A stretch of 64,000 nucleotides of DNA from a virus. Below the pieces are notes generated by a model. It saw only the letters and a program-made list of their open reading frames with translations, ran no database searches and was not told where the DNA came from. Position numbers and translations under genes: made by a program. This document shows, in pieces, positions 3,632 through 63,135 of this stretch (position 1 is its first letter; each line of letters starts with the position of its first letter). The stretch lies in the UHGV virus genome UHGV-0382128; one strand, given 5' to 3'.

Positions 3632-4147
3632 TTAGTCACGAGACTTTATTTTAAGGTACGCAACCGCAGCTCCCACGATTGCAATACCGGCGCCCCAACC
3701 TATCTTTTCTATTACACTCATATCGTCCCATCTTTTCTCTTCGTTACGTCGTTTGGCCTCGTCTGCCCGTTCTCTCCACATCGCTTCGCGTTCCAGACAG
3801 CTGGGATTTATTTCCTCTTCACAACGACGTTTCCGCTCTTCTTCCCTAACCAGTTCTTCTAAATAGAGCCTCGTTTCTTCCACAGCTTGTTCATAGACGT
3901 CTATGCGTTCGGGAAGAATTCTCCTGTGAGCGGCTTTGTTGCGAACGGAAGCAATCATGTGGAGTTTCCGTTCGTATTTTGGTTCGAGAAGATGAGCTAT
4001 GCTTTTGGTCTTCCCATGAAGCCCATGACCGGTACCGCCGAGTTTTTCCACAAGTTCTTCTACAGAAATTGCAAGATCGAGAATATATCCACGCATAATT
4101 GTTTCTCCGCTTAAACGCAGTCTTGGGAGACATAAGTCTGTTCCCAA
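3632..4147 (-). CDS. hypothetical protein with HEPN-like Rx4H motif and C-terminal transmembrane helix
   Basis: motif SVRNKAAHRR (R-x4-H); C-terminal IGWGAGIAIVGAAVAYL hydrophobic helix; true start may be an internal Met. Confidence 0.4.
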   Translation of the reverse strand: MGTDLCLPRLRLSGETIMRGYILDLAISVEELVEKLGGTGHGLHGKTKSIAHLLEPKYERKLHMIASVRNKAAHRRILPERIDVYEQAVEETRLYLEELVREEERKRRCEEEINPSCLEREAMWRERADEAKRRNEEKRWDDMSVIEKIGWGAGIAIVGAAVAYLKIKSRD

Positions 4148-4156
4148 CTGTAAAAA

Positions 4157-4525
4157 TCATTTCAACAAAACAAGATGAATTTGGTATTCGTCATCAGCAG
4201 GAGAAGAATAATCGCCAGCTTCAGGTAACGTTATATCTCCCAGTAGAGCGTGGAAGGGTAATCCACGAGCAGCCTCAACTATTCGTACAAGCGGAAAACC
4301 TGTTCTTTTAATCCAATTGTAATCAACAAACATAACACCACCAGGACTTCCCGAACCTTCCCACACACGAATTTCCACAGTCTTTCCCGAAAAGTTGGCA
4401 AGTACGGTGCGTAGTCCTAATCGCACATAACTGGGAAAGGGTACTTCAATAACTTGTTTTGGTAAAACAAATTCAGGGAATTTAAAACCGAAACCTTTGG
4501 GTGTACTAAAAAACTGAGCTTGCAT
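4157..4525 (-). CDS. hypothetical protein (122 aa)
   Basis: ORF track; AAGGAG SD upstream. Confidence 0.5.
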   Translation of the reverse strand: MQAQFFSTPKGFGFKFPEFVLPKQVIEVPFPSYVRLGLRTVLANFSGKTVEIRVWEGSGSPGGVMFVDYNWIKRTGFPLVRIVEAARGLPFHALLGDITLPEAGDYSSPADDEYQIHLVLLK

Positions 4526-4557
4526 GATAATTCTCCTTTAGGGTAAAAAATGAAAAT

Positions 4558-4581
4558 ACCCTACTCCTGTCTAGGAGTAGG
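4558..4581 (-). terminator. rho-independent terminator (CCCTACTCC-loop-GGAGTAGGG family)
   Basis: hairpin ccctactcc-tgtcta-ggagtaggg with flanking A-run on plus strand; lies after the stop of 4589..5248. Confidence 0.55.
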
Positions 4582-4588
4582 GTAGGTA

Positions 4589-5248
4589 TTACATACGGGT
4601 AACTGAATCCCAGTAATCGCGAAGATATTCTTGATCTTCAGGATCTTTCGGTGTAGCCGGAATGTGGCCGTCAAACTCAAACGGAATTACAGACAGAACA
4701 TCCGCAATCTCGTAACGCTCGACTTCCAGTTCAACTTTCACCCAGTCACCGACGCTGGTACTACTACGCATCTCGGTGAGGAGATCGTTAAAGTCAGCCG
4801 AAACTTCAATTGCAGGGTGTCCGGTGGTGATAGTGAAAATATCAATATCCCAATGCTTAGCGCCTTTATCGGCTAATTCACCCGGTTCTAAGTGGATACG
4901 TTTCACCAGGTGAGCCAAATAACCGTCCTTGTAAAAAGAGAGTGCAGAACTAATACCGATATCCGAATTCTCTTCAACCTTTCCGTCCAGGAATTTACGC
5001 TTAAGCGTTAGCTGTGCTGTACCGTCTTCTTTAATACGGATACGACGACGCCCACCTTCTATCGGCATGAGAATGTCCATGAACATCTTAGTGGACTGTG
5101 CGTGTAGCCAATCCCATCCCGCTTGCGTGGGTTTTACCCAAACGCAATATTCCTTTTCCACTTCACGTTTAATGGATTCGCCTGCAACGCGAATAACTTC
5201 TTCTTCCTGCGCTTTTTCCAATTGCGCAAGGGTATCGAATAATCCCAT
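4589..5248 (-). CDS. hypothetical protein (219 aa)
   Basis: ORF track. Confidence 0.55.
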   Translation of the reverse strand: MGLFDTLAQLEKAQEEEVIRVAGESIKREVEKEYCVWVKPTQAGWDWLHAQSTKMFMDILMPIEGGRRRIRIKEDGTAQLTLKRKFLDGKVEENSDIGISSALSFYKDGYLAHLVKRIHLEPGELADKGAKHWDIDIFTITTGHPAIEVSADFNDLLTEMRSSTSVGDWVKVELEVERYEIADVLSVIPFEFDGHIPATPKDPEDQEYLRDYWDSVTRM

Positions 5249-32577: not shown

Positions 32578-32630
32578 ACCCACCTCCATAAAGACGGAGT
32601 GTGGTGTAAAAAGAAAAAAAAATAGAGAAA

Positions 32631-42348: not shown

Positions 42349-42367
42349 GCGAAAAAAAAACGTGCTA

Positions 42368-52342: not shown

Positions 52343-55300
52343 ATGCCGAGAGAAGACGCGGCGCAGTTTAACGGTACGCTAAGCACAACGACGTACCCTA
52401 ACCGATTTAACGTGGTCATTCCGCCTGAAGGACCTTTTTATCGTATCGGATTAAAACTCACAGTAGCCGACGATACCGCGCCTAACGGACGTCGTACTCT
52501 GATTGAGGGGTTGGACTACTATTTAGGCTATTACTTTAAAGAACTCGCAGAAGCTGAACAAGATCAGATTTATGGCGGGTTTATGTTGCTTACTGCAACA
52601 GAAATCGAATATGAGATTTTAGGGGTAGCACGTCAATACCGTGTACCGCAATCTGAAATCGGTAAGTTCTTAGTTCGTACTGACCTGAAAGACCCACGTA
52701 ACGTGGACTGGTCGGAGTTAATGGCGTACGCGCCGGTTATTCAACCAATCGACCCCCCTGCTAACTTAGAAGAAGCTATTCTGAGGGACGAGGTCGTTAA
52801 AGCGTTGAACGATATCCGCAAGAAAATCATTCAGCGTTCAACAGAGTTAGATGCGGCCTTCACCGAAGTCACTAACCTGATTTACGAGAACGGTAAAAAG
52901 ATTTTCGATGAAGAACTATACCAACACCACCTTAATCCTAACGCTCACCAGTATACGACCAATGACGTTGGGGCCCTTCCGGTTTTAGGACGTGCTGTTG
53001 ACGCTACAAAAGCGTTTGGGTTGACAATTGACCAACTGGCTACGCTGATGGGTTCGGCGGGCATTGAGCAATCAGACGTTGAACAGCTAATGGGTGAAGC
53101 CCTCGGTACCGTTTACGGTCGTTGGGGCACCACGAACGGTAACGAACTAACGTTTAAAACACCGGGTGGACACATCATCAGCATCCGTGGTGATAAGTGG
53201 TTAATTACCTCCCCGCAACCGTTAGTGATTAAAGCAGACCAAGACAACAACGAATCCGGTTTGGCGGTTGAGTTTAGTGCGGGACTGAATACGCTTTGGG
53301 TACACTCTGGGTCAGAACAGGATGTATTAGCACCGGTCTATAACTCTGTGTATCTCGTTACACCAGAAATGGTGAACATGTACCTGACGTCTGTAACGTT
53401 ACTTGAAGCGAATGCCTATTTCAAACCGTCAGACACCGTAAAACCGTACGGTACAGCGAAGCAGTCTAACCCACTAACGTTGAACGCGAATATTCCCACA
53501 GCAACCGAGTCGGTTTATGGGGTGTTTTCGATTACGAATATCGCAACCTCTGTAGCGCTAGGCACTGCTATTTCCCAAAAGGCTGTGACCGAGTTAAAAA
53601 ACCGGTTGGACTTGTACGTTGACGACGACTACACGGTTAACGGTAAAGGGTTTGTTAAGACAGGCGACAACATGGTGTTAACCTTAACGAAGGCCGATTT
53701 CGGTATCGATAAGATGAATAACACCGCACCCATCGCTAAACCGGTAACAAAAGCATTAGCGAACGTGCTGAAAAATAAAAGTTTGAAGGTTCACACGCAC
53801 ACTACCGCTGATTTGGATAATGTCCCGATTGGTAGCGCAACAGTGGACGGTATCTTACAGCTGTGGGATGCGATTGATACCACGAATGATAAAGCCGTCA
53901 CATCACGCCAAGGGTGGCTGTTCGCAAAAGAGATTAAGAAGGTCTCTGATAAACTGAATACCCTCTTGCCCGCATGGACAACGGCCGGGAGCAAATATAC
54001 CAACAATTCGATATTGCCGATCTTGTCGATGGGTAATTACGAAGGTTATGGTAAAAACATGGATGCGCTCCAGATGGTTATAGGGGTACAACAAGGTAAG
54101 CTTTATGCTTTAATTAGCTCTAAATCCGCCCTTCCGGGAACTGAGGGTATTTATTACGCTGTTGCTGGGTTAAAAAACGACAAAAGTCTCGGTGAAATTT
54201 ACAAAACAACTTTCCGTTATAAGCCGAAAGGGTTAGAGACGAATTATCCGGGGGTGGAACTAAAAGAAATTACCGTTACTGGTACCGAAGCATTTATAGC
54301 GAAGGGCAGCGACGATAATTATTATTTAGTTAAACTGAACGGTTCAATGGATTACACCAAACATACCGATGTCAGGTTGGTAACTTTCTCAGAATTTGTT
54401 TCAGAAACAACATGGGAATTTGTGCCGAATATGTTCATGGATCGTGTGGTCATAGCCGATAACGGCGTCTATGTTTTGCGTACGATGCTAATGGCCGATC
54501 TGAAAAACAATACTCTGGTGGACTACATTAAGGATACCCCACAACCCATGTTCCGTGTTGGCTTATTGCGGCTTAATAAAACCGATCGGTTTGAACAGGT
54601 TGATTTAAGGTCTACACGAAAAATCGGTAAGTGTGCCGATTTGGTTGAACCTGGCGCGTTCGATGTAGATAATCCGAATACGAAGCGTCTTGCCTACTTC
54701 ACTGCGGAAGGCAAAGCGTTGTGGACAGTGAACTTACAATTAACTAGAGGGTCGTCAAGATGGATAACGCCCGTTGTTAAGGACGGTCACTTGTTAACCG
54801 TCGGCGTGTCTGGTGTTTGTCTTGGTTTTTCTTCAACGAAAGGTACCACATTCGGGCCATGGAATGGTGCTTATCGTCTTGACCTATTAACCGGGGAGGT
54901 TGGGTTAGAGACAACTAACGTCTTCCCAATTAAAATCGATACTACAGGTTGTTACTTAAAAGACGGAACAAAAATAGAGCTGAAATGGAAATGGGCTACT
55001 CGAAGTTCTGGCTATATGGCCGACAATAGAATCTGTGTCGGTGATATGGTTTATTCTTGCTGCTGTTCGACAGAAAAACAACTTGCACCATCTCTCCATT
55101 ACCAGAAACTCCCAGAAGGAGTTAGTTATCTGGACTATGTTAAGTTGAGTGTGGGGTATGAGGGGCAATCTACGTTTGAAAATCGGATAAACCCTGTGGT
55201 GGGTTCGGTGTGGAAACCGTCTATGACCTTCCCATTGTTCTTCCCAGGAACAAACAAAGTATGGCTTAAACATCAAAAATCGGCTTATTTCATTGAAGCC

Positions 55301-57529
55301 GAATATGATAAAAATACGACCTATGGTTATCCTGGATACGGTGGTTTTGGACCAACATCCCGCCGTGTTGAAAAAACAGCGAACGAATACGGCATATTGA
55401 CAAATATACCGCTGGTTGTTACGCCAGAAATACCGAACGGCCTACTAGAAGGGGCTTATTTTATCGGTGCCGAAAGTAAACCGTGTACAGTTGTTTACGG
55501 TACCACTACGGTGGGTAGTGATCGGTTGTCTATCGATGCGGCAGAATGGGCGAAGCTGACTAATATTGTTCAGTCCAGCCAGTTCTCCGGGGCATCTAAC
55601 GGCAACGCCTATGAGCGGATTAGCGTAGCTAAGACCAAAAAGAACAACTACAGTTTGTCCTTTTGGGTGCTTGGTCAAACGATGTCTGGTGGTCCGCTTT
55701 GTATCGCGATAGTGAGTCTTATCTATAAAGACACTGACGGGGTAAATAAGTTTGCTTTTTACTTCTTTCAGGTAAAACCGACTATAACCAACGGGGTCAT
55801 AAGGTTCGTTAGTTCGGAAGCGAGATTGATGACGTTTAGGGAAAAAGTGGCCAGTAACGCCATTAATCTCTCACCCACAGCTTTTAATGGTGAACTTAAA
55901 CAACGCTCCGGTCAAGTTTTCCTTTATTCGCAAGACGGACAAAAGTTCAGATTCTCAATACATAACCTGGTTGGTGGGAATCTTGTAGGATCAGAGATTT
56001 CTTTTGCTTTTGGGATAAACTTGACTAAAAAAGGCGAATGGTTTACCGGCGAAATTCATCGGGCGTGGGGCTATACGTATACGCTGAATAATACATCTGA
56101 AGTCTATATACCCGATCTCTCGGGCATCGCGCTATTGACTTGTAACTCGGAAGATTTAAACGAGTTGTATCTCGGTGGCGAACAGTATAGAATCTCTGAT
56201 TTGTTTAACAAAAAATATACTGTTATCGATAAGATTATTATTGGCGGCGTACAAACACAGAGCGGTTGGAATTTCTATCTGACGGAGGAAACCGAGTTAA
56301 GTTTTGGAAATAAAAGATATACCGTTCCAAGATGGTCCGTTGATTTAAGCGATGAATTCCCGACTAATCATGCTAACCAGACGTTCTACGTTTATGCTGA
56401 AGTGGTCGGTTCTACTGCCCAATACCGCATCGGTTTAGAGCAGTTAGCTGATACCTCGTCGAGACTGTTTGTTGGGACTGTAACCACTGATTCGAACCGT
56501 ATTACGGATATCAGTATCGATAAAGTAAAACGGTTAGGTCGCGTAAAAGAGCTGGAAAATCATGCCTCGATTGTTGATCAACACGATGTGGCGCAGGCAT
56601 TCGACAGGAAAACTGGCCCACTATTAACGCTGGTTAATAAACCCGTTAAAGTCGTTACAGCATCTGCGAGCAAGGGTGCTGGGTATGTCGATGGTCAGAA
56701 ATGGAATACGTTGTCCGGGATTACAACACGTTCCAGGTTGCCGGTACAGGAAACCTATTCAGGTTATAAAAGTATCAGCAGGGTGGCGTATGAGAACTGC
56801 GCTGACCAGTTCTGGCAGAAAGCGGTTGCTGCGAACGTTGCAGCGGCTACTGCTTCTGAGAACAAACAAGCAGCAACCGCGAACATGAAGTGGTTGGGCG
56901 CGTATACGAAACCGACTGTCGGTGCGAATGTGTGTCTGGTATTGAGTCTACGTGTTAAAGTGCCTGGTAATCCCGGCACCGCTAATCGTAAACTAAAAAT
57001 CAGATTCGCGGCTCCGACAGGTATAACTGATGTTAGTTACGGGCTAAATCAGTCTGGCGGTTCGATGGCTGAACAGACAGTAACGCTAACTGCTAACAGT
57101 TATCTGGAAAAAGAACATGCCGGATTTAAGCCAGCCGAAGAAGTCCGTCTTCATGCTACGTTTTACATTCCAACAAATGAATACGATAGTTACCGTACGA
57201 AGTTCGGTGCTGTTCAGCTGATTGACGTTGAGACGAACACTGTCATTAAACAGACAGATATCGACACACCGTTTATCGTGTACACCGCCACAGAGCAAGC
57301 GGCACAATCTGGTTTGGTCTATAAAGCGGTTAAGAGTCAGTTTCGTCAACTCCCGGCTCAACCTGTCGTCATTGTAACTGATGGACAGACAGGGACTACA
57401 CCACCGGTGAAAACCGCGTATTCTGACGGCACGTTAACGGTCTATGTGGCAACCACGTACGATGCGGTTAACCCAGCACAAACTCGCGATATCGATAAAC
57501 TCCAGTTCAATCTTATGTTTACATCTTAA
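52343..57529 (+). CDS. tail fibre protein 3 (1728 aa)
   Basis: TESVYGVFSITNIATSVALGTAISQKAVTEL fibre repeat; shared N-terminal domain (PEGPFY...GLDYYL). Confidence 0.65.
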   Translation: MPREDAAQFNGTLSTTTYPNRFNVVIPPEGPFYRIGLKLTVADDTAPNGRRTLIEGLDYYLGYYFKELAEAEQDQIYGGFMLLTATEIEYEILGVARQYRVPQSEIGKFLVRTDLKDPRNVDWSELMAYAPVIQPIDPPANLEEAILRDEVVKALNDIRKKIIQRSTELDAAFTEVTNLIYENGKKIFDEELYQHHLNPNAHQYTTNDVGALPVLGRAVDATKAFGLTIDQLATLMGSAGIEQSDVEQLMGEALGTVYGRWGTTNGNELTFKTPGGHIISIRGDKWLITSPQPLVIKADQDNNESGLAVEFSAGLNTLWVHSGSEQDVLAPVYNSVYLVTPEMVNMYLTSVTLLEANAYFKPSDTVKPYGTAKQSNPLTLNANIPTATESVYGVFSITNIATSVALGTAISQKAVTELKNRLDLYVDDDYTVNGKGFVKTGDNMVLTLTKADFGIDKMNNTAPIAKPVTKALANVLKNKSLKVHTHTTADLDNVPIGSATVDGILQLWDAIDTTNDKAVTSRQGWLFAKEIKKVSDKLNTLLPAWTTAGSKYTNNSILPILSMGNYEGYGKNMDALQMVIGVQQGKLYALISSKSALPGTEGIYYAVAGLKNDKSLGEIYKTTFRYKPKGLETNYPGVELKEITVTGTEAFIAKGSDDNYYLVKLNGSMDYTKHTDVRLVTFSEFVSETTWEFVPNMFMDRVVIADNGVYVLRTMLMADLKNNTLVDYIKDTPQPMFRVGLLRLNKTDRFEQVDLRSTRKIGKCADLVEPGAFDVDNPNTKRLAYFTAEGKALWTVNLQLTRGSSRWITPVVKDGHLLTVGVSGVCLGFSSTKGTTFGPWNGAYRLDLLTGEVGLETTNVFPIKIDTTGCYLKDGTKIELKWKWATRSSGYMADNRICVGDMVYSCCCSTEKQLAPSLHYQKLPEGVSYLDYVKLSVGYEGQSTFENRINPVVGSVWKPSMTFPLFFPGTNKVWLKHQKSAYFIEAEYDKNTTYGYPGYGGFGPTSRRVEKTANEYGILTNIPLVVTPEIPNGLLEGAYFIGAESKPCTVVYGTTTVGSDRLSIDAAEWAKLTNIVQSSQFSGASNGNAYERISVAKTKKNNYSLSFWVLGQTMSGGPLCIAIVSLIYKDTDGVNKFAFYFFQVKPTITNGVIRFVSSEARLMTFREKVASNAINLSPTAFNGELKQRSGQVFLYSQDGQKFRFSIHNLVGGNLVGSEISFAFGINLTKKGEWFTGEIHRAWGYTYTLNNTSEVYIPDLSGIALLTCNSEDLNELYLGGEQYRISDLFNKKYTVIDKIIIGGVQTQSGWNFYLTEETELSFGNKRYTVPRWSVDLSDEFPTNHANQTFYVYAEVVGSTAQYRIGLEQLADTSSRLFVGTVTTDSNRITDISIDKVKRLGRVKELENHASIVDQHDVAQAFDRKTGPLLTLVNKPVKVVTASASKGAGYVDGQKWNTLSGITTRSRLPVQETYSGYKSISRVAYENCADQFWQKAVAANVAAATASENKQAATANMKWLGAYTKPTVGANVCLVLSLRVKVPGNPGTANRKLKIRFAAPTGITDVSYGLNQSGGSMAEQTVTLTANSYLEKEHAGFKPAEEVRLHATFYIPTNEYDSYRTKFGAVQLIDVETNTVIKQTDIDTPFIVYTATEQAAQSGLVYKAVKSQFRQLPAQPVVIVTDGQTGTTPPVKTAYSDGTLTVYVATTYDAVNPAQTRDIDKLQFNLMFTS

Positions 57530-57569
57530 CGCCACGAGACAAGGACGTCTCGGATTAAGGAGAGTGGCC

Positions 57570-58769
57570 ATGGCCTCCATTGTATACCAATACCCTTTAG
57601 ATTTAACGGGAACCCTAACCTCTAACGCCGTGGAGCGTCAGATTACGTTAGGTACAGGCAAAGTTAACCGTGCGTTTGCTTTCCCTGATGGTCCGTTTTA
57701 TGCCGATACGTTCCGCTTGCGGGTTGCCAATCGACCTGGAGCGACATATGAGCGTGGAACGGACTATGAACTGATTTTTGCACACCCGGCTTATGAGAAA
57801 TTGACGAAGAACCGGGAAGTGGTAATGGCGGTTGTTGTAACGAACACCGCGATTCCGACCGATATCACGGTATCGGCGCAAGTAGTTGGTGGTCCTCAGT
57901 CTGCAAATGTGACCGCGATTGAGCAAGCGATTGCCGAGTTGAAACTCGATAATCGAACTGTTGGCTTTAAAGACTTGCGAAATGTGCCGGACACGTTTCC
58001 TTCAGCACCAACGTATAAAGACGTCGGTGATATTTACGGCTTCGAATATATCATTACAGTGCTCGCTGGCATTAAAGATGCGATAACTGCGGGTGATGCT
58101 GTACAGCTTGAGAACATCAAAGCGATTCTCGATAGCCTGAAAAACGATTTCCTGGACGCGCTGAACGCGCACATTAACTCTACTGGTAATGTCCACCATC
58201 TGGATATTCATCAGGTTAACGGGTTAACGGAAACGGAGATCCGCGCTTTAATTCGCAGTGTTCAGACAGCCATTGATGCAACGATTGCCGATATCAATGC
58301 ATTGAAGAAAGCGGACGAAGCGTTAGGAAAACGTATTGATGCTGTTGTCAAATCTCTGGAAGCGTGGAACGACCAACTTAACGTCGTTGCACAAAACTAT
58401 CAGAAAATGGCACTGGCGCTGGCGAACCTAAACTCGTTAGTGTTACAGTTACAGAAAAATATCAACGATCTGAACACCAAACTCAACCAAGCGATTCAGC
58501 GCATTGCTGCGTTAGAACAGCGGGGTAATGAGACCGATCAGAAAATTGATAATCTGCAACAAAACTTGGATGCGCTTAAACAACAGGTTGCGAATAACAC
58601 GAACGCAATCAGTCAGGCGAATCAGAACCTACAAAACCATATTGCGGCAGATAACCCACACACAGGTTATCTCCACAAGAAATACGGTGGTGTGGTTCAG
58701 GCTTCAGTACACGTTAACGCTAACCTGACGTCCCGTGATGACGTTCAGGCAGAAGCAGGTACGAAATAA
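57570..58769 (+). CDS. fibre-like protein with shared N-terminal domain and C-terminal coiled-coil (400 aa)
   Basis: start moved to MASIVYQYPL (TAAGGAGAG SD); PDGPFY...GTDYEL N-domain; long heptad-repeat segment. Confidence 0.5.
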   Translation: MASIVYQYPLDLTGTLTSNAVERQITLGTGKVNRAFAFPDGPFYADTFRLRVANRPGATYERGTDYELIFAHPAYEKLTKNREVVMAVVVTNTAIPTDITVSAQVVGGPQSANVTAIEQAIAELKLDNRTVGFKDLRNVPDTFPSAPTYKDVGDIYGFEYIITVLAGIKDAITAGDAVQLENIKAILDSLKNDFLDALNAHINSTGNVHHLDIHQVNGLTETEIRALIRSVQTAIDATIADINALKKADEALGKRIDAVVKSLEAWNDQLNVVAQNYQKMALALANLNSLVLQLQKNINDLNTKLNQAIQRIAALEQRGNETDQKIDNLQQNLDALKQQVANNTNAISQANQNLQNHIAADNPHTGYLHKKYGGVVQASVHVNANLTSRDDVQAEAGTK

Positions 58770-58833: not shown

Positions 58834-59229
58834 GTGATGGCGATCAGTGTTAAAAATGTGCGTGACCGAATCACCAACGTAGAGAACCAAATGGCAACTG
58901 GCCCACGTGTTGATCCGCAAGTTGCGTCGAAAGCACATAATGCTGCTGATTCATTTTCAGGTTGGACACCCGGTCGATTAGATTGTGGAGGTAGCTGTAG
59001 CTGGACGTGCTCAAACGGTTGTACGCATGGTTGTACGAGTTGTTCAGGTACATGTACATCGGTGTGCGTAGGAAGCTGTTCCTCTGCGTGTGGTAATCAA
59101 TGCAGTGGTTGTAGCGGAACGTGTTCTGGTGGTTGTTCAGGATGTAGCGGGACTTGTAGTGGGGGATGTGCTGGACGTTGTTCCTCGGGGTGTAGCGGTT
59201 CTTGTGCAGGTGGTTGTTCTAACCCATAA
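58834..59229 (+). CDS. Cys/Gly/Ser-rich protein 1 with leader-like N-terminus (131 aa); candidate radical-SAM substrate
   Basis: N-terminus MAISVKNVRDRI..., then about 21 Cys at roughly 4-residue periodicity starting DCGGSCSWTCS. Confidence 0.6.
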   Translation: MMAISVKNVRDRITNVENQMATGPRVDPQVASKAHNAADSFSGWTPGRLDCGGSCSWTCSNGCTHGCTSCSGTCTSVCVGSCSSACGNQCSGCSGTCSGGCSGCSGTCSGGCAGRCSSGCSGSCAGGCSNP

Positions 59230-59248: not shown

Positions 59249-60163
59249 ATGGAAGAACTTACTAGACCGACGGTATCCGATAAGCTCTACAGTAATCCGA
59301 GAACGTTAAACGTGATTACAACATCCAAATGTAATCTGGACTGTAGCTTCTGCGGCGGAGCCTATTACATGCATAGAGAGGATACAACCGCAGAAGTACA
59401 AAAGGAAAGTATTATCGAGGCGCTGGAAAATAACCCGACTATCACAAATATCCAATGGTCAGGGGGCGAACCATTACTTGCCACGCGTAAAATTGATACC
59501 CTTATAGAAGAGATAAGGGAGAAGTATCCTCGTTGCGAACATTACCTGTATACCAATGGTTTAAAAATGCGTAAATCGCATCTACCGTTGTTAAAGGGTT
59601 TTGATAGTATCTTTTTTAGCATGGATGGATTCAAAGAATCAGAGCGTCCGTTCATGCGGATTATCGAAGAAAAACAATACGAGGTTTTGGAGACAATTTA
59701 CGAATTGAAAAATATTCGTACTTGGGCGGTTTTGACGCGCGAGCGTATTGGGGATAAACGTTGGTACGAAGATATAATTGCGTTACATAACCACATTTAC
59801 CATTATGGTTTTTGTGAGATGTCGCTGGTTTTGGACAAAAACATGCCAAAACCGTTATCTCCCGATCACGTTATGAACTTTATTTACGGGTATTTTAGAA
59901 TTCAGGAGAATATAGAAAGACTGAATTCGTCCAATCGAAGCGAATGTGCGTTTACGCTAAATGCGTTATTTGATGAACCCTGTAACACATGTAGTCGTTG
60001 TTTTCGCATTGAGTCTGACGGTGCCCAGAACCAAGTAAAGAACGTTGAAATCGTAACGCAACACGGCTGTAGTGACTTGGCCAGAAAGGTTGGATTAGAT
60101 GCTTACGACTATATACGTCGTGTGGTAGGGGCTAAGAATAGAGTCTCAGAAAAACTACGATAA
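59249..60163 (+). CDS. radical SAM enzyme 1 (304 aa)
   Basis: CNLDCSFCGG (CxxxCxxC), GGEPLL, C-terminal CNTCSRC and GC auxiliary-cluster-like cysteines. Confidence 0.75.
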   Translation: MEELTRPTVSDKLYSNPRTLNVITTSKCNLDCSFCGGAYYMHREDTTAEVQKESIIEALENNPTITNIQWSGGEPLLATRKIDTLIEEIREKYPRCEHYLYTNGLKMRKSHLPLLKGFDSIFFSMDGFKESERPFMRIIEEKQYEVLETIYELKNIRTWAVLTRERIGDKRWYEDIIALHNHIYHYGFCEMSLVLDKNMPKPLSPDHVMNFIYGYFRIQENIERLNSSNRSECAFTLNALFDEPCNTCSRCFRIESDGAQNQVKNVEIVTQHGCSDLARKVGLDAYDYIRRVVGAKNRVSEKLR

Positions 60164-60221: not shown

Positions 60222-60620
60222 ATGGCGATTGGTTTATCTTCTTTAAAGGCCCGGCTAGATAACATAGACTCTACTGCATTAAAAAATACAGGTGCGGTGC
60301 AGAACTATATTCGTGGTAAAGCCACTAATAATAGCGATCTGTTTGGAGGACAGCCGAGAAATCACTATGACTGCGGAGGTAGCTGTAGCTGGACGTGCTC
60401 AAGTTGTTCGGGCGGCTGTACCGGCAACGCCTCCGGCGGCTGCGGTTCTTCCTGTTCAGCGAACTGTGTTTCAGGATGTAGTACAGGTTGCACAGGTTGT
60501 AGCAGTACCTGCTCAGGAGGGTGCACAGGTAATTGCTCGGGCGGTTGTTCAAGTAGTTGCACCGGAACATGTTCAGGTTCATGTCGAGGCGGATGTCAGC
60601 AATCGTGTACTGGAAGATAA
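60222..60620 (+). CDS. Cys/Gly/Ser-rich protein 2 with leader-like N-terminus (132 aa)
   Basis: N-terminus MAIGLSSLKARL...; core begins YDCGGSCSWTCSS with about 22 Cys. Confidence 0.6.
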   Translation: MAIGLSSLKARLDNIDSTALKNTGAVQNYIRGKATNNSDLFGGQPRNHYDCGGSCSWTCSSCSGGCTGNASGGCGSSCSANCVSGCSTGCTGCSSTCSGGCTGNCSGGCSSSCTGTCSGSCRGGCQQSCTGR

Positions 60621-60623
60621 GAA

Positions 60624-61290
60624 ATGATAAGTCTTAAAAACATACGCGACAGATTAGTGACGGCGGAGGGATATATCACCACCGCTAATGCAAACAACTA
60701 TATTGCAAACCAAGGAACGGTTTCCTCAACCAACAATCTCGCAGGATTACCTTTAAGTCATTATAATTGTAATGGCGGATGTAGTTGGTCGTGCAGCGGT
60801 AGCTGTAGTAAGGGGGCGGGGGGGGGTAAGTAAGCCCTCTAGCGGTGGTTCTACGCCAACCCCTTCAAGACCAACCTACGACAACAAAGCCGTTGTTTAT
60901 GTTGAGTCTAAGCTACACGCTAAAGATACTGTTCGTATCAATTTCTCTACTGGGGCTGTCTTTATTCAATGCGTAACGTCAACCGGTAGAGAGAAACCGA
61001 TAAGGGTCTTTAAATCGTTACTGTCTGGAAAGTCCTACGCCTACCCTCAAGTTGCAATGGGTAATGGTATCACTGTTAATTTTACAGACGCGGCTAGTTT
61101 TAAGATAGACTCTATCGGTAATGCATCTTCTGCTTCTATCTCATTAGAAGTATTAAGTAATTCCGGCGGAAGCATGGCGATTACGCAGCAACCGAGTAAA
61201 TCAAACGGCTTTACTGCAGAATTTGAAGTTACCGGCAGGCAATGGCGTGGCGGGTTCTATACCTTGAACGTCAGATTGACCGTAAAATAA
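60624..61290 (+). pseudogene. Cys-rich protein 3 interrupted at a G9 tract; both frames (60624..60833 and 60772..61290) look coding and a 1-nt change would fuse leader plus short Cys core to a 150-aa C-terminal domain
   Basis: frame A ends ...CNGGCSWSCSGSCSKGAGGGK; frame B continues through the same G-run as RGRGGVSKPSSGGSTPTPSRPTYDNK... (Ser/Pro/Thr linker then beta-rich domain). Confidence 0.4.
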
Positions 61291-61302: not shown

Positions 61303-62190
61303 ATGAAAAACGATTTGCATTTAGCCTATAAAACAATTTTCAACCACCCACTTCATATTTCTTCCCCCGATTCAATACGCGCTCATTTGGAAGATAAAGT
61401 TCGTTTGTTAACCCAGTTACCTGGCGAATGGCCCAAAGTGCGTGGTCGTTTTTTTACCGATCGCAATAACTATTCAGTAGAAAACACTTTTAAAATACGC
61501 GATCTGACAGCAGAAAGCGTAGTGGTGTTTACCGGTGATTCAGATTTACGCGGTAAATTGGTTGACGGTAAATATTTCTTTAGTGACGGTATTCTGAATA
61601 ATTCTGTAGATTTGGAATTGTTCTTTACGCCATTTAAAGAGTTGAATGCGAAGCCTGTAGCACGACGTTGGTGGTCTCCAGACTATCTTGGTTCATTCCC
61701 GTACTTTTATGCCCTGGTTCCTGTAGAAACAAAAAACTATGTTGATACTGAACCGTATATTGAAATAGAAGGTTACGAGGAACTTGGCATCAACTGTTTA
61801 GCAGATCTGATGGCGTACAGTTACAAATTTATGTGGGATCGTGAACGTTCAGTATGGGTTGCCCTTACAGATGAACATGAAATCACAAAACGTATTCGTA
61901 AACCATGGATGCAGCATTTAATTCAAACACGTATTGGTGAACATCCGTCATCGGAAGCAGATTTAGCGAAACTTGTTAGTTTCTTAATGACGAAAGTCAC
62001 GTTAACTGATGAAGAAAAAGCGGCAGTGTCGGCGGTATTGGAACGTAACGTAACGTTAGCGGATCTAGAACGTTTAAACGTGCGTTATAAAGACCTTAAT
62101 CGTATTATTGAGGCTTACAATTCACCGTTTGTATTAAAACCTGGAGTTAACGCTTACGACGATCCTTTGTTATCCATTGGCTATATTTAA
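61303..62190 (+). CDS. hypothetical protein (295 aa) inside the radical-SAM cluster
   Basis: ORF track; GGAG SD. Confidence 0.55.
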   Translation: MKNDLHLAYKTIFNHPLHISSPDSIRAHLEDKVRLLTQLPGEWPKVRGRFFTDRNNYSVENTFKIRDLTAESVVVFTGDSDLRGKLVDGKYFFSDGILNNSVDLELFFTPFKELNAKPVARRWWSPDYLGSFPYFYALVPVETKNYVDTEPYIEIEGYEELGINCLADLMAYSYKFMWDRERSVWVALTDEHEITKRIRKPWMQHLIQTRIGEHPSSEADLAKLVSFLMTKVTLTDEEKAAVSAVLERNVTLADLERLNVRYKDLNRIIEAYNSPFVLKPGVNAYDDPLLSIGYI

Positions 62191-62196
62191 AAATAG

Positions 62197-63135
62197 ATGG
62201 ACTCACCTGCAATGACAACCGACGTAGAGCCAAGGTTATCGAATCGTTTATACAATAAACCCACCGTATTGTCCGTAGTTGCTACATCCAAATGTAATCT
62301 GGACTGTAGCTTCTGCGGCGGAGCCTATTACATGCATCGTGAAGATTCTCCGCGAGAGTTTCAACGTGAACGAATTTTGAAAGCGTTGGCGTCTAACCCA
62401 ACCATTACTGAAATTCAGTGGACTGGCGGTGAACCGCTACTGGCAACTCGAAAGATTGAGGCGTTTGTCGACGAATTAAAAACGATCCGTCCTGAACTCA
62501 AACACCAGATGTTCACGAACGGTTTAAAAATGCGTAAATCGCATCTACCGTTGTTAAAACAATTCGATGGTATATATGTTAGCATCGATGGGTTTAATCT
62601 TTCTGAACGGCCTTTTAAGCGCTTTATTGATGATAATTGTCATGAAGCGTTAGAAGTAATTTACAGCTTGAATAATGTTAACACCTGGGCTGTTGTTACG
62701 AGGGAGAATTTATCCAATAAAAGATGGCATGAAGATATCATTCAATTACATACTGCTATCTATCATTACGGTTTTCGTTCCATGTCCTTATTACTAGATA
62801 AAAACATGCCAAAACCGTTATCTCCCGATCACGTTATGAACTTTATTTACGGGTATTTTAGAATTCAGGAGAATATAGAAAGATTAAACGTTCTAAATTC
62901 TAGAGACTGCGGTTTTATTGTAAACAGATTCTTCGATCATGCTTGTAATGTCTGTAGCGAAAGTCTCAGGATAGACGCGGACGGGGAAGAAAACCAACTT
63001 AAAAATGTACCAATAACTACAAAAGCAGGGTGTAACCAACTAGCCTCCTCAATAGGTGTAGAAGCTTACGAGTACATTCGTCGTGTAGTGATGGCAGAGC
63101 GTAATAGAGGGGCGGAAAATGAGTCAAGAAAATAG
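62197..63135 (+). CDS. radical SAM enzyme 2 (312 aa), paralogue of 59249..60163
   Basis: CNLDCSFCGG motif; several blocks of perfect nucleotide identity with radical SAM enzyme 1. Confidence 0.75.
   Translation: MDSPAMTTDVEPRLSNRLYNKPTVLSVVATSKCNLDCSFCGGAYYMHREDSPREFQRERILKALASNPTITEIQWTGGEPLLATRKIEAFVDELKTIRPELKHQMFTNGLKMRKSHLPLLKQFDGIYVSIDGFNLSERPFKRFIDDNCHEALEVIYSLNNVNTWAVVTRENLSNKRWHEDIIQLHTAIYHYGFRSMSLLLDKNMPKPLSPDHVMNFIYGYFRIQENIERLNVLNSRDCGFIVNRFFDHACNVCSESLRIDADGEENQLKNVPITTKAGCNQLASSIGVEAYEYIRRVVMAERNRGAENESRK

What the first reader, a model, noticed from the sequence alone, without database searches (positions are those of the whole stretch)
60624..61290. G9 homopolymer at the frame junction of Cys-rich protein 3
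ORF 60624..60833 ends just after a run of nine G (about 60817-60826) and ORF 60772..61290 reads through the same G-run in the neighbouring frame into a Ser/Pro/Thr linker (SKPSSGGSTPTPSRPTY) and a 150-aa beta-rich domain. Removing one G (or adding two) fuses leader, short Cys core, linker and C-terminal domain into one protein of about 225 aa. This is either a homopolymer sequencing error, or a slipped-strand or translational frameshift site producing two isoforms (short Cys-rich protein versus domain-bearing fusion).
Basis: seen in the sequence. Interest (0 to 1): 0.6.

Follow-up and report, generated by a model that had tools for sequence, protein, structure and literature searches.

The report
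PolyG switch on swappable phage domain
In a giant SPN3US-like Salmonella/E. coli phage, a conserved run of 9-11 G joins a small cysteine-rich peptide gene to an exchangeable C-terminal domain, and its length differs between otherwise identical genomes, so it most likely acts as a slippage switch between a short and a long protein and is not a one-off sequencing error.

Summary
G9 lies at 60818..60826 and is the only G/C homopolymer of 7 or more in the 64 kb window. It is followed by TAAGTAA, which closes two reading frames. The third frame runs through a linker and a 154-aa all-beta domain that has no start codon downstream of the tract.

It is not a one-off error. The same junction recurs in dozens of independent assemblies. 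Among contigs fetched through the neighbouring gene, ten places showed G9 four times, G10 four times, G4AG5 once and G11 once; G11 is a natural 222-aa fusion. Contigs with no SNP differences over 2.3 kb still differ in tract length.

The out-of-frame domain is under purifying selection (dN/dS 0.07-0.19). It behaves as a horizontally exchanged cassette whose left edge is the tract. At least three unrelated cassette types occur between 94-99% identical flanks.

Where the tract is interrupted in the OFF frame, the cassette is deleted or carries stops. Where it is interrupted in frame, the fusion is intact. SPN3US itself has neither tract nor domain.

Best reading: a contingency-type polyG slippage site toggling a short CXXX-repeat peptide and a domain-bearing fusion, in the baseplate/tail-fibre region. 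RNA-level slippage or ribosomal frameshifting cannot be excluded. An intergenic A9 control also varies, so read-level data are needed.

The parts
60624..60833 (+). Short isoform ORF (69 aa): conserved N-terminal 48-aa region, short CXXX-repeat core, then the tail KGAGGGK*. It is the orthologue of the unannotated 68-aa ORF of SPN3US.
   Evidence: (phrog_6085, E 1.2e-24).
60768..60809 (+). CXXX-repeat core CNGG-CSWS-CSGS-CS, shared with the paralogues at 58834..59229 and 60222..60620. The ATG at 60772 is a by-product of the Asn-Gly codons AAT GGC and has no Shine-Dalgarno sequence upstream.
   Evidence: In L005 and L007 the Asn codon is AAC, so no ATG is present.
60812..60826 (+). G-rich tract G5-C-G9. 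The slippage-prone homopolymer is G9 at 60818..60826.
   Evidence: Length polymorphism G9/G10/G11 among near-identical contigs, with the only indel columns in 2308 aligned columns falling here.
60827..60833 (+). Double stop TAAGTAA. TAA at 60827-29 closes frame 2 (used in the G10 state, product ...GGG*). TAA at 60831-33 closes frame 0 (G9 state, product ...GGGK*). Only the third frame continues.
   Evidence: TAAGTAA is conserved in type A cassettes and TAAATAA in type C.
60826..60879 (+). Ser/Pro/Thr/Gly linker VSKPSSGGSTPTPSRPTY, in frame +1 relative to the short ORF.
60880..61290 (+). C-terminal all-beta domain (cassette type A) plus its stop codon. No ATG, GTG or TTG occurs in frame until codon Met78 of the 154-aa stretch. 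Under purifying selection.
   Evidence: (dN/dS 0.07-0.19). Cassette mosaicism.
61303..62190 (+). Conserved 295-aa gene (phrog_8030). It marks the right boundary of the variable cassette.
58834..59229 (+). Cys-rich CXXX-repeat paralogue 1.
   Evidence: TIGR04114, 20.1 bits against a cut-off of 20.
60222..60620 (+). Cys-rich CXXX-repeat paralogue 2.
   Evidence: TIGR04114, 22.3 bits against a cut-off of 20.
59249..60163 (+). Radical SAM protein (304 aa). This is an extra copy specific to the window's lineage.
62197..63135 (+). Radical SAM protein (312 aa). In relatives it is followed by a 444-aa radical SAM peptide-maturase-like gene, which the window end cuts off here.

Best explanation
The G tract is a real, selectively maintained slippage site. 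It sits exactly where the gene for the third CXXX-repeat peptide (similar to radical-SAM maturase targets) meets a horizontally exchangeable C-terminal beta-domain cassette. The locus lies in the baseplate/tail-fibre region of an SPN3US-like jumbo phage.

Tract length sets the product:
- G9 or G10 gives only the short peptide, ending GGGK* or GGG*. This resembles the complete 68-aa protein of relatives that have no cassette.
- G8 or G11 gives a fusion of about 221-222 aa: N-terminal region, Cys core, linker and domain.

The most likely mechanism is slipped-strand mispairing during DNA replication, so each phage population holds a mixture of genotypes making the short or the long form. This is a contingency locus.

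Shown here: the tract, its between-genome length polymorphism, the frame consequences, natural fusions, selection on the domain, cassette exchange, and decay of the cassette when the tract is locked OFF.

Inferred: that the polymorphism is biological and reversible within populations, that the fusion protein is made, and that the domain serves host interaction.
For: 1. The same junction appears in many independent assemblies from different projects and assemblers.
2. Ten places fetched through the neighbouring gene, so unbiased with respect to the tract, showed G9 four times, G10 four times, G4AG5 once and G11 once.
3. In a 2308-column alignment of 20 contigs with 195 SNP columns, the only indel columns lie in the tract. 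Pairs with 0 SNP differences have different tract lengths, for example L015 (G10) against L017, L022 and L026 (G9), and L018 (G10) against L024, L025 and L033 (G9).
4. Domain dN/dS is 0.07-0.19, although the domain is out of frame in most consensus sequences and has no start downstream of the tract.
5. In-frame fusions exist for all three cassette types: type A (L021; P0034, P0035, P0041, P0042, P0044), type B (P0004, P0050) and type C (P0006, P0061, P0067). Out-of-frame states exist for all three too.
6. The tract stays a pure run of G between lineages whose leader and neighbouring gene are saturated at synonymous sites (pS 0.8-1.0). GGG makes up only 20% of Gly codons.
7. There is a natural experiment. 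Tracts interrupted in the OFF frame (G6AAGG) are followed by deleted or stop-containing cassette remnants. A tract interrupted in the ON frame (GGC GGA GGG GGA GGG) is followed by an intact fusion. SPN3US has no tract and no cassette.
8. The cassette is mosaic. Flanks are 94-99% identical around unrelated cassettes, while the window and L003 share an 86% identical cassette inside 57-73% identical flanks.
9. No + strand terminator-like site lies within the gene cluster.
10. There is precedent: Fletchervirus phages carry polyG tracts of 7-11 in receptor-binding protein genes, as cited in PMC12633550.
Against: 1. The intergenic A9 control (42352..42360) also varies: A9 in five shown contigs, A8 in one and A10 in one. 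Long homopolymers are therefore generally unstable in these assemblies, technically or biologically, and consensus length differences alone do not prove a specialised switch.
2. No reads were available, so within-population heterogeneity and reversibility were not shown.
3. In-frame states of cassette A are rare: 1 of 10 shown places, and only a few of the listed cluster members. This fits a design in which a minority of fusion product arises from RNA-level or ribosomal slippage at least as well as it fits DNA phase variation.
4. The function of the domain is unknown. The structure models were poor (pLDDT 49 and 32) and no family or solved-structure match was found.
Confidence: 0.6

Rival explanations
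1. Programmed recoding at the RNA level. The phage RNA polymerase slips on the G run, or ribosomes shift +1 on G9 or -1 on G10. A genome with an OFF tract would then always make mostly short peptide plus a fixed minority of fusion protein, as with T7 10A/10B, lambda G/GT or the Listeria phage PSA structural proteins. DNA-level length changes would be incidental.
For: Both common genotypes, G9 and G10, are out of frame, and in-frame genotypes of cassette A are rare. Yet the domain shows strong purifying selection, which is easiest to explain if it is expressed from every genome. Both OFF frames stop within 0-2 codons, giving clean short products. A run of 9-11 identical bases allows perfect re-pairing after a shift of one base.
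Against: The frame relation is not conserved. G9 needs a +1 shift, G10 needs -1 and G11 needs none, all among near-identical genomes, unlike classical programmed frameshift sites. No conserved downstream RNA structure was found: consensus energy -10.6 kcal/mol, covariation term +0.97, and 1 compensatory pair of 22. From general knowledge rather than a test here, documented bacterial transcriptional slippage involves A or T runs, not G runs. Hard-wired in-frame fusions (type B) show that making 100% fusion is viable.
Confidence: 0.22
2. Technical or neutral homopolymer instability with no switching role. The domain would be translated on its own from ATG 60772, in the overlapping frame, as the 172-aa protein that gene callers predict.
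For: Gene callers predict 171-173-aa ORFs in many assemblies. An intergenic A9 run also varies among assemblies.
Against: ATG 60772 has no Shine-Dalgarno sequence. It exists only because of the Asn-Gly codons AAT GG and is absent where Asn is AAC. The independent ORF would be broken in the G10 and G11 genomes, which make up about half of the sample. Natural in-frame fusions exist for every cassette type, including a hard-wired one. A neutral model does not predict that the tract stays pure at saturated synonymous divergence, nor that it decays together with the cassette.
Confidence: 0.08
3. The downstream domain is a decaying pseudogene: a former fusion disabled by a frameshift in the G run, on its way to being lost as in SPN3US-like relatives.
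For: Several lineages carry deleted or stop-containing remnants of the same cassette. SPN3US has none. Most consensus sequences are out of frame.
Against: The 154 codons are intact in every pure-tract genome examined. dN/dS is 0.07-0.19, with dS from 0.1 up to saturation. The cassette has moved recently between diverged lineages. Decay is seen only where the tract itself is interrupted.
Confidence: 0.05

Closest known systems
Hypermutable polyG tracts in receptor-binding protein genes of Campylobacter Fletchervirus phages (Sorensen et al. 2021, Cell Rep 35:109214, as cited in PMC12633550)
   Same: Both have a G run of 7-11 inside a phage structural or host-interaction gene region. In both, length variation shifts the frame and creates subpopulations with different proteins.
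   Different: The host and phage group differ: here an enterobacterial SPN3US-like jumbo phage. The tract sits at a domain junction, so the OFF product is a complete, ancestral-type short peptide and not a truncated receptor-binding protein. Both OFF frames are closed by an adjacent double stop. The tract is also the left boundary of an exchangeable cassette. No phenotype has been shown here.
Contingency loci in coliphages T2 and T4 (Gomez, Barrick and Waters 2025, PMC12633550)
   Same: Homopolymer slippage gives reversible frameshifts and population heterogeneity in phage genes.
   Different: Those loci are shorter runs (scanned at 6 or more bases) that inactivate and restore genes such as agt and rIIA. 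That paper reports such repeats as under-represented in tail-fibre and infection proteins. The tract here is longer, made of G, conserved across diverged lineages, and toggles between two isoforms.
C-terminally extended structural proteins made by programmed frameshifting (T7 10A/10B, lambda G/GT, Listeria phage PSA capsid and tail proteins). This comparison comes from general knowledge.
   Same: One gene yields a short major product and a longer product that carries an extra C-terminal domain read in another frame.
   Different: Those sites have a fixed frame relation and defined slippery motifs. Here the frame relation varies between near-identical genomes and no stimulatory structure is conserved.
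Invertible tail-fibre segments of Mu (G segment) and P1 (C segment). This comparison comes from general knowledge.
   Same: A constant N-terminal part is joined to alternative variable C-terminal parts, giving switchable host-interaction proteins.
   Different: Switching there is by site-specific inversion between two resident cassettes. Here there is one resident cassette, switched on or off by tract length, and different cassettes are exchanged between genomes.
CXXX-repeat peptide and radical SAM maturase systems (NCBIfam TIGR04114 and TIGR04115)
   Same: Cys-rich CXXX-repeat proteins lie next to radical SAM genes. The 444-aa enzyme of relatives has TIGR04115 as its best hit (E 5.6e-36), and paralogues 1 and 2 reach the TIGR04114 cut-off.
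   Different: The maturase score (124.8) is far below the family cut-off (350). The system is phage-encoded and sits in a baseplate/fibre gene block. The third peptide has only about 3.5 repeats and can carry a folded C-terminal domain. No chemistry has been shown.

Membership tests
Phage contingency locus (hypermutable homopolymer, Fletchervirus polyG type) | A homopolymeric tract of 7 or more bases inside coding sequence | tested here: met
   G9 at 60818..60826 lies inside ORF 60624..60833. Relatives carry G9 to G11.
Phage contingency locus (hypermutable homopolymer, Fletchervirus polyG type) | Tract length changes faster than the flanking sequence among close relatives | tested here: met
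   The tract holds the only indel columns in 2308 aligned columns. Contigs with 0 SNP differences carry G9 or G10. Caveat: an intergenic A9 control also varies, in 2 of 7 shown contigs, so a technical contribution is not excluded.
Phage contingency locus (hypermutable homopolymer, Fletchervirus polyG type) | Length changes switch between alternative protein products | tested here: met
   G9 gives a 69-aa product, G10 a 68-aa product and G11 a 222-aa fusion.
Phage contingency locus (hypermutable homopolymer, Fletchervirus polyG type) | Heterogeneity and reversibility within a single phage population | not testable with these tools
   No reads were available. An assembly break exactly at the tract in a Shigella flexneri assembly (P0010 and P0011) is only suggestive.
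Phage contingency locus (hypermutable homopolymer, Fletchervirus polyG type) | The gene product mediates host interaction, and switching changes the phenotype | tested here: inconclusive
   The locus lies next to homologues of SPN3US gp168-type baseplate/tail-fibre candidates, and the cassette shows the mosaic exchange pattern typical of host-range modules. The domain has no recognisable family or fold.
Programmed ribosomal frameshift site | A frame relation between the two ORFs that is conserved among homologues | tested here: not met
   G9 (needing +1), G10 (needing -1) and G11 (in frame) coexist among near-identical genomes.
Programmed ribosomal frameshift site | A conserved stimulatory element, such as a downstream structure | tested here: not met
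   The window sequence folds with z = -2.3. The alignment consensus is weak, at -10.6 kcal/mol with a covariation term of +0.97.
Programmed ribosomal frameshift site | Two protein products made from one mRNA sequence | not testable with these tools
   This needs proteomics or reporter assays.
Transcriptional slippage site | A long homopolymer (9 or more bases) in the template, and mRNA length heterogeneity exceeding that of the DNA | not testable with these tools
   The homopolymer is present. RNA heterogeneity cannot be assessed. Known bacterial examples use A or T runs (general knowledge).
CXXX-repeat peptide / radical SAM maturase system (TIGR04114 / TIGR04115) | A radical SAM peptide maturase of the CXXX-repeat target family | tested here: not met
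   TIGR04115 is the best hit for the 444-aa enzyme of L003 (E 5.6e-36, 124.8 bits), but the family cut-off is 350. The enzyme is related but is not a member by the curated threshold.
CXXX-repeat peptide / radical SAM maturase system (TIGR04114 / TIGR04115) | An adjacent Cys-rich CXXX-repeat substrate protein | tested here: met
   Paralogues 1 and 2 score 20.1 and 22.3 bits against TIGR04114, whose cut-off is 20. Protein 3 shares phrog_6085 and the motif CNGG-CSWS-CSGS-CS.
CXXX-repeat peptide / radical SAM maturase system (TIGR04114 / TIGR04115) | Post-translational cross-links installed on the Cys-rich core | not testable with these tools
   This needs mass spectrometry of the peptides.

The most novel reading that the evidence does not exclude
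The polyG tract may be a recoding device and not only a mutational switch. Slippage by the jumbo phage's own multisubunit RNA polymerase, or by ribosomes, on G9 or G10 would set a fixed low ratio of long to short isoforms. On this reading a radical-SAM cross-linked CXXX-repeat peptide is a structural building block of the baseplate/fibre apparatus, and a few copies per virion carry a horizontally swappable receptor-binding domain. That would describe a RiPP-like modified peptide used as the anchor of a modular host-range determinant.
Probability: 0.15. Interest if true: 0.85.

Novelty: new variant of a known kind. Interest (0 to 1): 0.62.

Why it matters
If it is real, SPN3US-like jumbo phages of Salmonella, E. 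coli and Shigella carry a built-in switch in their baseplate/tail-fibre gene block. The switch toggles a conserved, probably radical-SAM-modified, cysteine-rich peptide between a bare form and a form carrying one of several exchangeable beta domains.

This would extend polyG contingency switching from Campylobacter phages to enterobacterial jumbo phages. These phages are candidates for phage therapy and biocontrol, where hidden host-range heterogeneity matters.

It also flags a locus that annotation pipelines handle badly. They call a 172-aa overlapping ORF, or internal-Met fragments, or read the Cys-rich genes in the wrong frame.

Finally, it gives a concrete experimental handle on the function of the unstudied phage CXXX-repeat / radical SAM module, through locked-ON and locked-OFF tract mutants and cassette swaps.

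Tried and rejected
- Megablast of the locus against GenBank phages, plasmids and complete E. coli genomes found nothing at 85% identity or above. No isolated phage of this lineage was available for comparison. Only SPN3US-like relatives at about 68-71% identity were found.
- Pfam and NCBIfam gave no family for the C-terminal domain, for cassette types B and C, or for the 295-aa neighbour.
- An exhaustive HMMER search of 1.84 billion representatives found only close relatives plus two bacterial repeat proteins, P0071 and P0072, which share a QQPxxxNGFTA motif (E 8e-6 and 2.5e-5). They have no annotation.
- AlphaFold models were of low confidence (pLDDT 49 for the domain with a 4-sequence alignment, 32 for P0006). 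The Foldseek PDB search was meaningless, with TM about 0.16.
- Sequence searches of the PDB found nothing relevant for the domain, the 441-aa fibre-region protein, the 295-aa protein or Cys-rich protein 1.
- Profile comparison of cassette A with types C and B gave only weak similarity at the C terminus (E 0.014 and 0.099). Common ancestry of the cassettes remains undecided.
- The downstream RNA structure, tested as a possible frameshift stimulator, is not conserved.
- Exact-pattern scans of IMG/VR with the window's own junction found nothing. Degenerate scans of IMG/VR and the JGI metagenomes returned mainly the interrupted-tract remnant lineage. The genome-contig scan found no relative.
Their DNA was reached only indirectly, through window-encoded proteins.
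- The A9 control was meant to show that the G tract is unusually variable. It did not: 2 of 7 shown contigs differ at A9, against 6 of 10 places that differ from G9 at the G tract, and the sample is too small to separate them.

Full report
**1. The observation**

The sequence reads ...AGT AAG GGG GCG GGG GGG GGT AAG TAA G.... The G9 run is 60818..60826. It is preceded by GGGGG-C at 60812..60817 and followed by TAAGTAA.

ORF 60624..60833 (69 aa) ends KGAGGGK*. ORF 60772..61290 (172 aa) lies one base to the right and reads RGRGGVSKPSSGGSTPTPSRPTY..., followed by about 135 further residues. Deleting one G gives a 221-aa fusion and adding two gives 222 aa.

G9 is the only G or C homopolymer of 7 or more in the window, where 0.065 are expected. 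GGG makes up 20% of Gly codons, and none of 49 Gly-Gly dipeptides in the long ORFs is encoded GGGGGG.

**2. Context**

The window comes from an SPN3US-like (Seoulvirus-related) jumbo phage. The neighbouring 295-aa protein is 72-74% identical to those of SPN3US and its relatives. No isolate phage in GenBank is 85% or more identical at the DNA level.

The gene order in the window is:
- three very large proteins, the last being 52343..57529 (1728 aa, phrog_7449);
- a 441-aa virion structural protein (phrog_2163);
- Cys-rich protein 1;
- a radical SAM protein;
- Cys-rich protein 2;
- Cys-rich protein 3, which is the finding;
- a 295-aa protein (phrog_8030);
- a second radical SAM protein.

In relatives a 444-aa radical SAM protein and a DUF4376 protein follow. 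SPN3US gp168 (188 kDa) and its paralogues are virion proteins described as baseplate/tail-fibre candidates (PMC5105663 and PMC5694885).

The 444-aa enzyme has TIGR04115 (radical SAM peptide maturase, CXXX-repeat target family) as its best hit, but scores below the curated cut-off. Cys-rich proteins 1 and 2 just reach the TIGR04114 cut-off. Protein 3 shares the N-terminal region and the first CXXX repeats (CNGG-CSWS-CSGS-CS) with these paralogues. No + strand terminator-like site lies inside the cluster.

**3. Homologues that end at this point, and homologues that do not**

SPN3US and Erwinia phage pEa_SNUABM_29 encode a 68-aa orthologue ending (R/H)GAGNR*. The 295-aa gene follows about 25 nt later, and these phages have no G tract and no domain. 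The short ORF is therefore a complete, ancestral-type gene and not a truncation.

A search of 5.8 billion proteins with the conceptual fusion found three things:
- the same domain called in the same shifted frame (P0001 95%, P0002 91% and P0003 60% identical);
- in-frame fusions of the same leader and core to two unrelated C-terminal domains (P0004, 226 aa, type B; P0006, 210 aa, type C);
- two mis-called read-throughs from upstream frames.

The cluster members include natural in-frame fusions of cassette A (P0034, P0035, P0041, P0042, P0044; 221-222 aa). They also include a 69-aa ...GGGK* form listed on 37 contigs, a 68-aa ...GGG* form on 38 contigs, and out-of-frame calls for types B and C.

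**4. Tract length polymorphism**

I fetched contigs through the identical neighbouring 295-aa protein, which does not bias the sample with respect to the tract. The ten places shown carried G9 (L017, L022, L023, L024), G10 (L015, L018, L019, L020), G4AG5 (L016) and G11 (L021, called as one 222-aa gene).

I aligned 20 contigs over 2308 columns with 195 SNP columns. The only indel columns are in the tract. Contigs with zero SNP differences carry different tract lengths: L015 against L017, L022 and L026, and L018 against L024, L025 and L033. More distant lineages have G9 (L004, L008), GCA plus G11 (L003, same frame relation as the window) and G11 in frame (L007, type C).

As a control I examined an intergenic A9 run (42352..42360) in contigs fetched through its neighbouring gene. 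It was A9 in five shown places, A8 in one and A10 in one. Long homopolymers in general vary between these assemblies, so length polymorphism alone cannot separate biology from homopolymer error. The argument has to rest on the evolutionary evidence below.

**5. Evidence that the tract and the fusion are functional**

(a) The domain is under purifying selection in its own frame. dN/dS is 0.09 (window against L003), 0.07 (L004), 0.19 (L008) and 0.20 (L027). All 154 codons are intact in every pure-tract genome examined.

(b) The domain has no start of its own. No ATG, GTG or TTG lies in frame between the tract and an internal Met78. The upstream ATG at 60772 is formed by the Asn-Gly codons AAT GGC of the Cys core, has no Shine-Dalgarno sequence, and is missing where Asn is AAC. 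An ORF starting there would be broken in G10 and G11 genomes.

(c) The tract stays a pure run of G between lineages whose leader and 295-aa gene are saturated at synonymous sites (pS 0.8-1.0). Codon usage alone would give GCG GGG GGG GGx with a probability of about 0.012.

(d) There is a natural experiment:
- Lineages with the tract interrupted in an OFF frame (GCG GGG GGA AGG TAA) carry only remnants of cassette A. At least three different deletion forms occur, some with internal stops (L009/L041, L046-L048, L011/L043/L044, L012/L042).
- The lineage with the tract interrupted in frame (GGC GGA GGG GGA GGG GTA; L005, L006) has an intact fusion.
- Pure-tract genomes keep the cassette whatever the current frame.

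(e) Both non-fusion frames are closed immediately after the tract, by TAAGTAA in type A and TAAATAA in type C. OFF genomes therefore make a clean short peptide ending GGG* or GGGK*.

**6. The domain is an exchangeable cassette**

L003, L004, L005 and L007 have 94-99% identical flanks, measured over 600 nt upstream, the 295-aa gene and 600 nt downstream; the leader is 89-98% identical. Their cassettes are unrelated (about 49% nucleotide identity, which is random level) or only 63% identical (A1 against A2).

Conversely, the window and L003 share an 86% identical cassette inside flanks that are only 57-73% identical. The left boundary of the mosaic is the G tract and the right boundary is the start of the 295-aa gene.

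This is the pattern expected of a host-interaction module under diversifying selection. The biochemical function of the domain is still unknown:
- No Pfam, NCBIfam or PDB relatives were found.
- Two unannotated bacterial repeat proteins share a QQPxxxNGFTA motif.
- The AlphaFold models are all-beta but unreliable.
- The fold search was uninformative.
- Cassettes B and C share only a weak C-terminal resemblance with cassette A.

**7. Mechanism**

DNA-level slipped-strand mispairing is the simplest reading, because consensus genomes with identical flanks differ only in tract length and all three frame states are observed. It matches the precedent of polyG tracts of 7-11 in receptor-binding protein genes of Fletchervirus phages, and the recent description of contingency loci in T2 and T4 (PMC12633550).

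A classical programmed ribosomal frameshift is not supported. The frame relation is not conserved and the downstream structure seen in the window (z = -2.3) is not conserved.

RNA-level slippage or ribosomal shifting on the G run cannot be excluded. It is favoured by one observation: in-frame genotypes of cassette A are rare (1 of 10 shown places) although the domain is strongly constrained.

My weights are about 0.6 for a DNA-level contingency switch, 0.2 for RNA or translational recoding as the main route to the fusion, and about 0.1 together for artefact, an independent ORF or a pseudogene.

**8. Comparison with what is known, and novelty**

The kind of element, a hypermutable polyG tract in a phage structural or host-interaction gene, is known. 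Several things are different here:
- the phage group (enterobacterial SPN3US-like jumbo phages);
- the placement of the tract at a domain junction, so that the OFF state yields a complete ancestral short protein;
- the double stop that closes both OFF frames;
- the coincidence of the tract with a cassette-exchange boundary;
- the partner protein, a CXXX-repeat peptide of a radical SAM cluster.

I rate it a new variant of a known kind, of moderate to high interest. Read-level and proteomic confirmation are still required.

**9. Verdict**

Its 'sequencing error' option is rejected for this window as a one-off error. Its 'slippage site producing two isoforms' option is supported by comparative evidence. 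Its 'translational frameshift' option remains possible but is not favoured.

Noticed in passing
window 59249..60163: The window's lineage has an extra radical SAM gene (304 aa), a paralogue of 62197..63135, inserted between Cys-rich proteins 1 and 2. SPN3US and the L003 lineage have no gene there.
   Followed up: partly
L001 (SPN3US NC_027402) 4081..4707: RefSeq annotates gp100 (L001 4154..4489) in the wrong reading frame across Cys-rich protein 2, whose true ORF is 4081..4485. The third Cys-rich ORF (4501..4707, 68 aa) is not annotated at all. Several other phage records show the same problem.
   Followed up: partly
window 32614..32622 and 42352..42360: Two intergenic A9 runs each lie next to a GC-rich hairpin that looks like a terminator. 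The second run varies from A8 to A10 among otherwise similar contigs.
   Followed up: partly
L009/L041, L046-L048, L011/L043/L044, L012/L042: A common related lineage has the interrupted tract GGGGGGAAGG followed by remnants of cassette A, of 86-167 nt measured from the end of the Cys core to the next gene. The deletions join the linker SGGS to the C-terminal QQPSKSNGFT... segment, and some remnants contain stop codons. The 68-aa product ...GAGGR* is listed on 43 contigs.
   Followed up: yes
Proteins P0010 and P0011 (Shigella flexneri assembly DQB62): Two partial proteins end and begin on either side of the tract, at contig ends (...CSGSC and SGGSTPTPS...). This isolate assembly therefore breaks exactly at the polyG tract.
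   Followed up: no
Cluster members listed: This roughly 225-kb phage lineage turns up in many Salmonella enterica, E. coli and Shigella isolate assemblies and in gut or environmental metagenomes. No isolate phage genome of the lineage is in the GenBank phage collection searched. That may point to carrier-state or contaminating jumbo phage in bacterial cultures.
   Followed up: no
P0071 and P0072 (bacterial proteins of about 550 aa): These have signal-peptide-like N-terminal sequences and four or five repeats of a roughly 100-aa unit ending ...QQPxxxNGFTAxxEIxDP...Y.L..DW. The repeats resemble the C-terminal 45 residues of cassette A. They match no Pfam family.
   Followed up: partly
window 57444..58769: The listed 441-aa ORF overlaps the end of the 1728-aa gene by 86 nt. 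Relatives are called at 399-412 aa, starting near MA(S/E)I.YQYPLDL, so the true start is probably internal, near residue 42.
   Followed up: no
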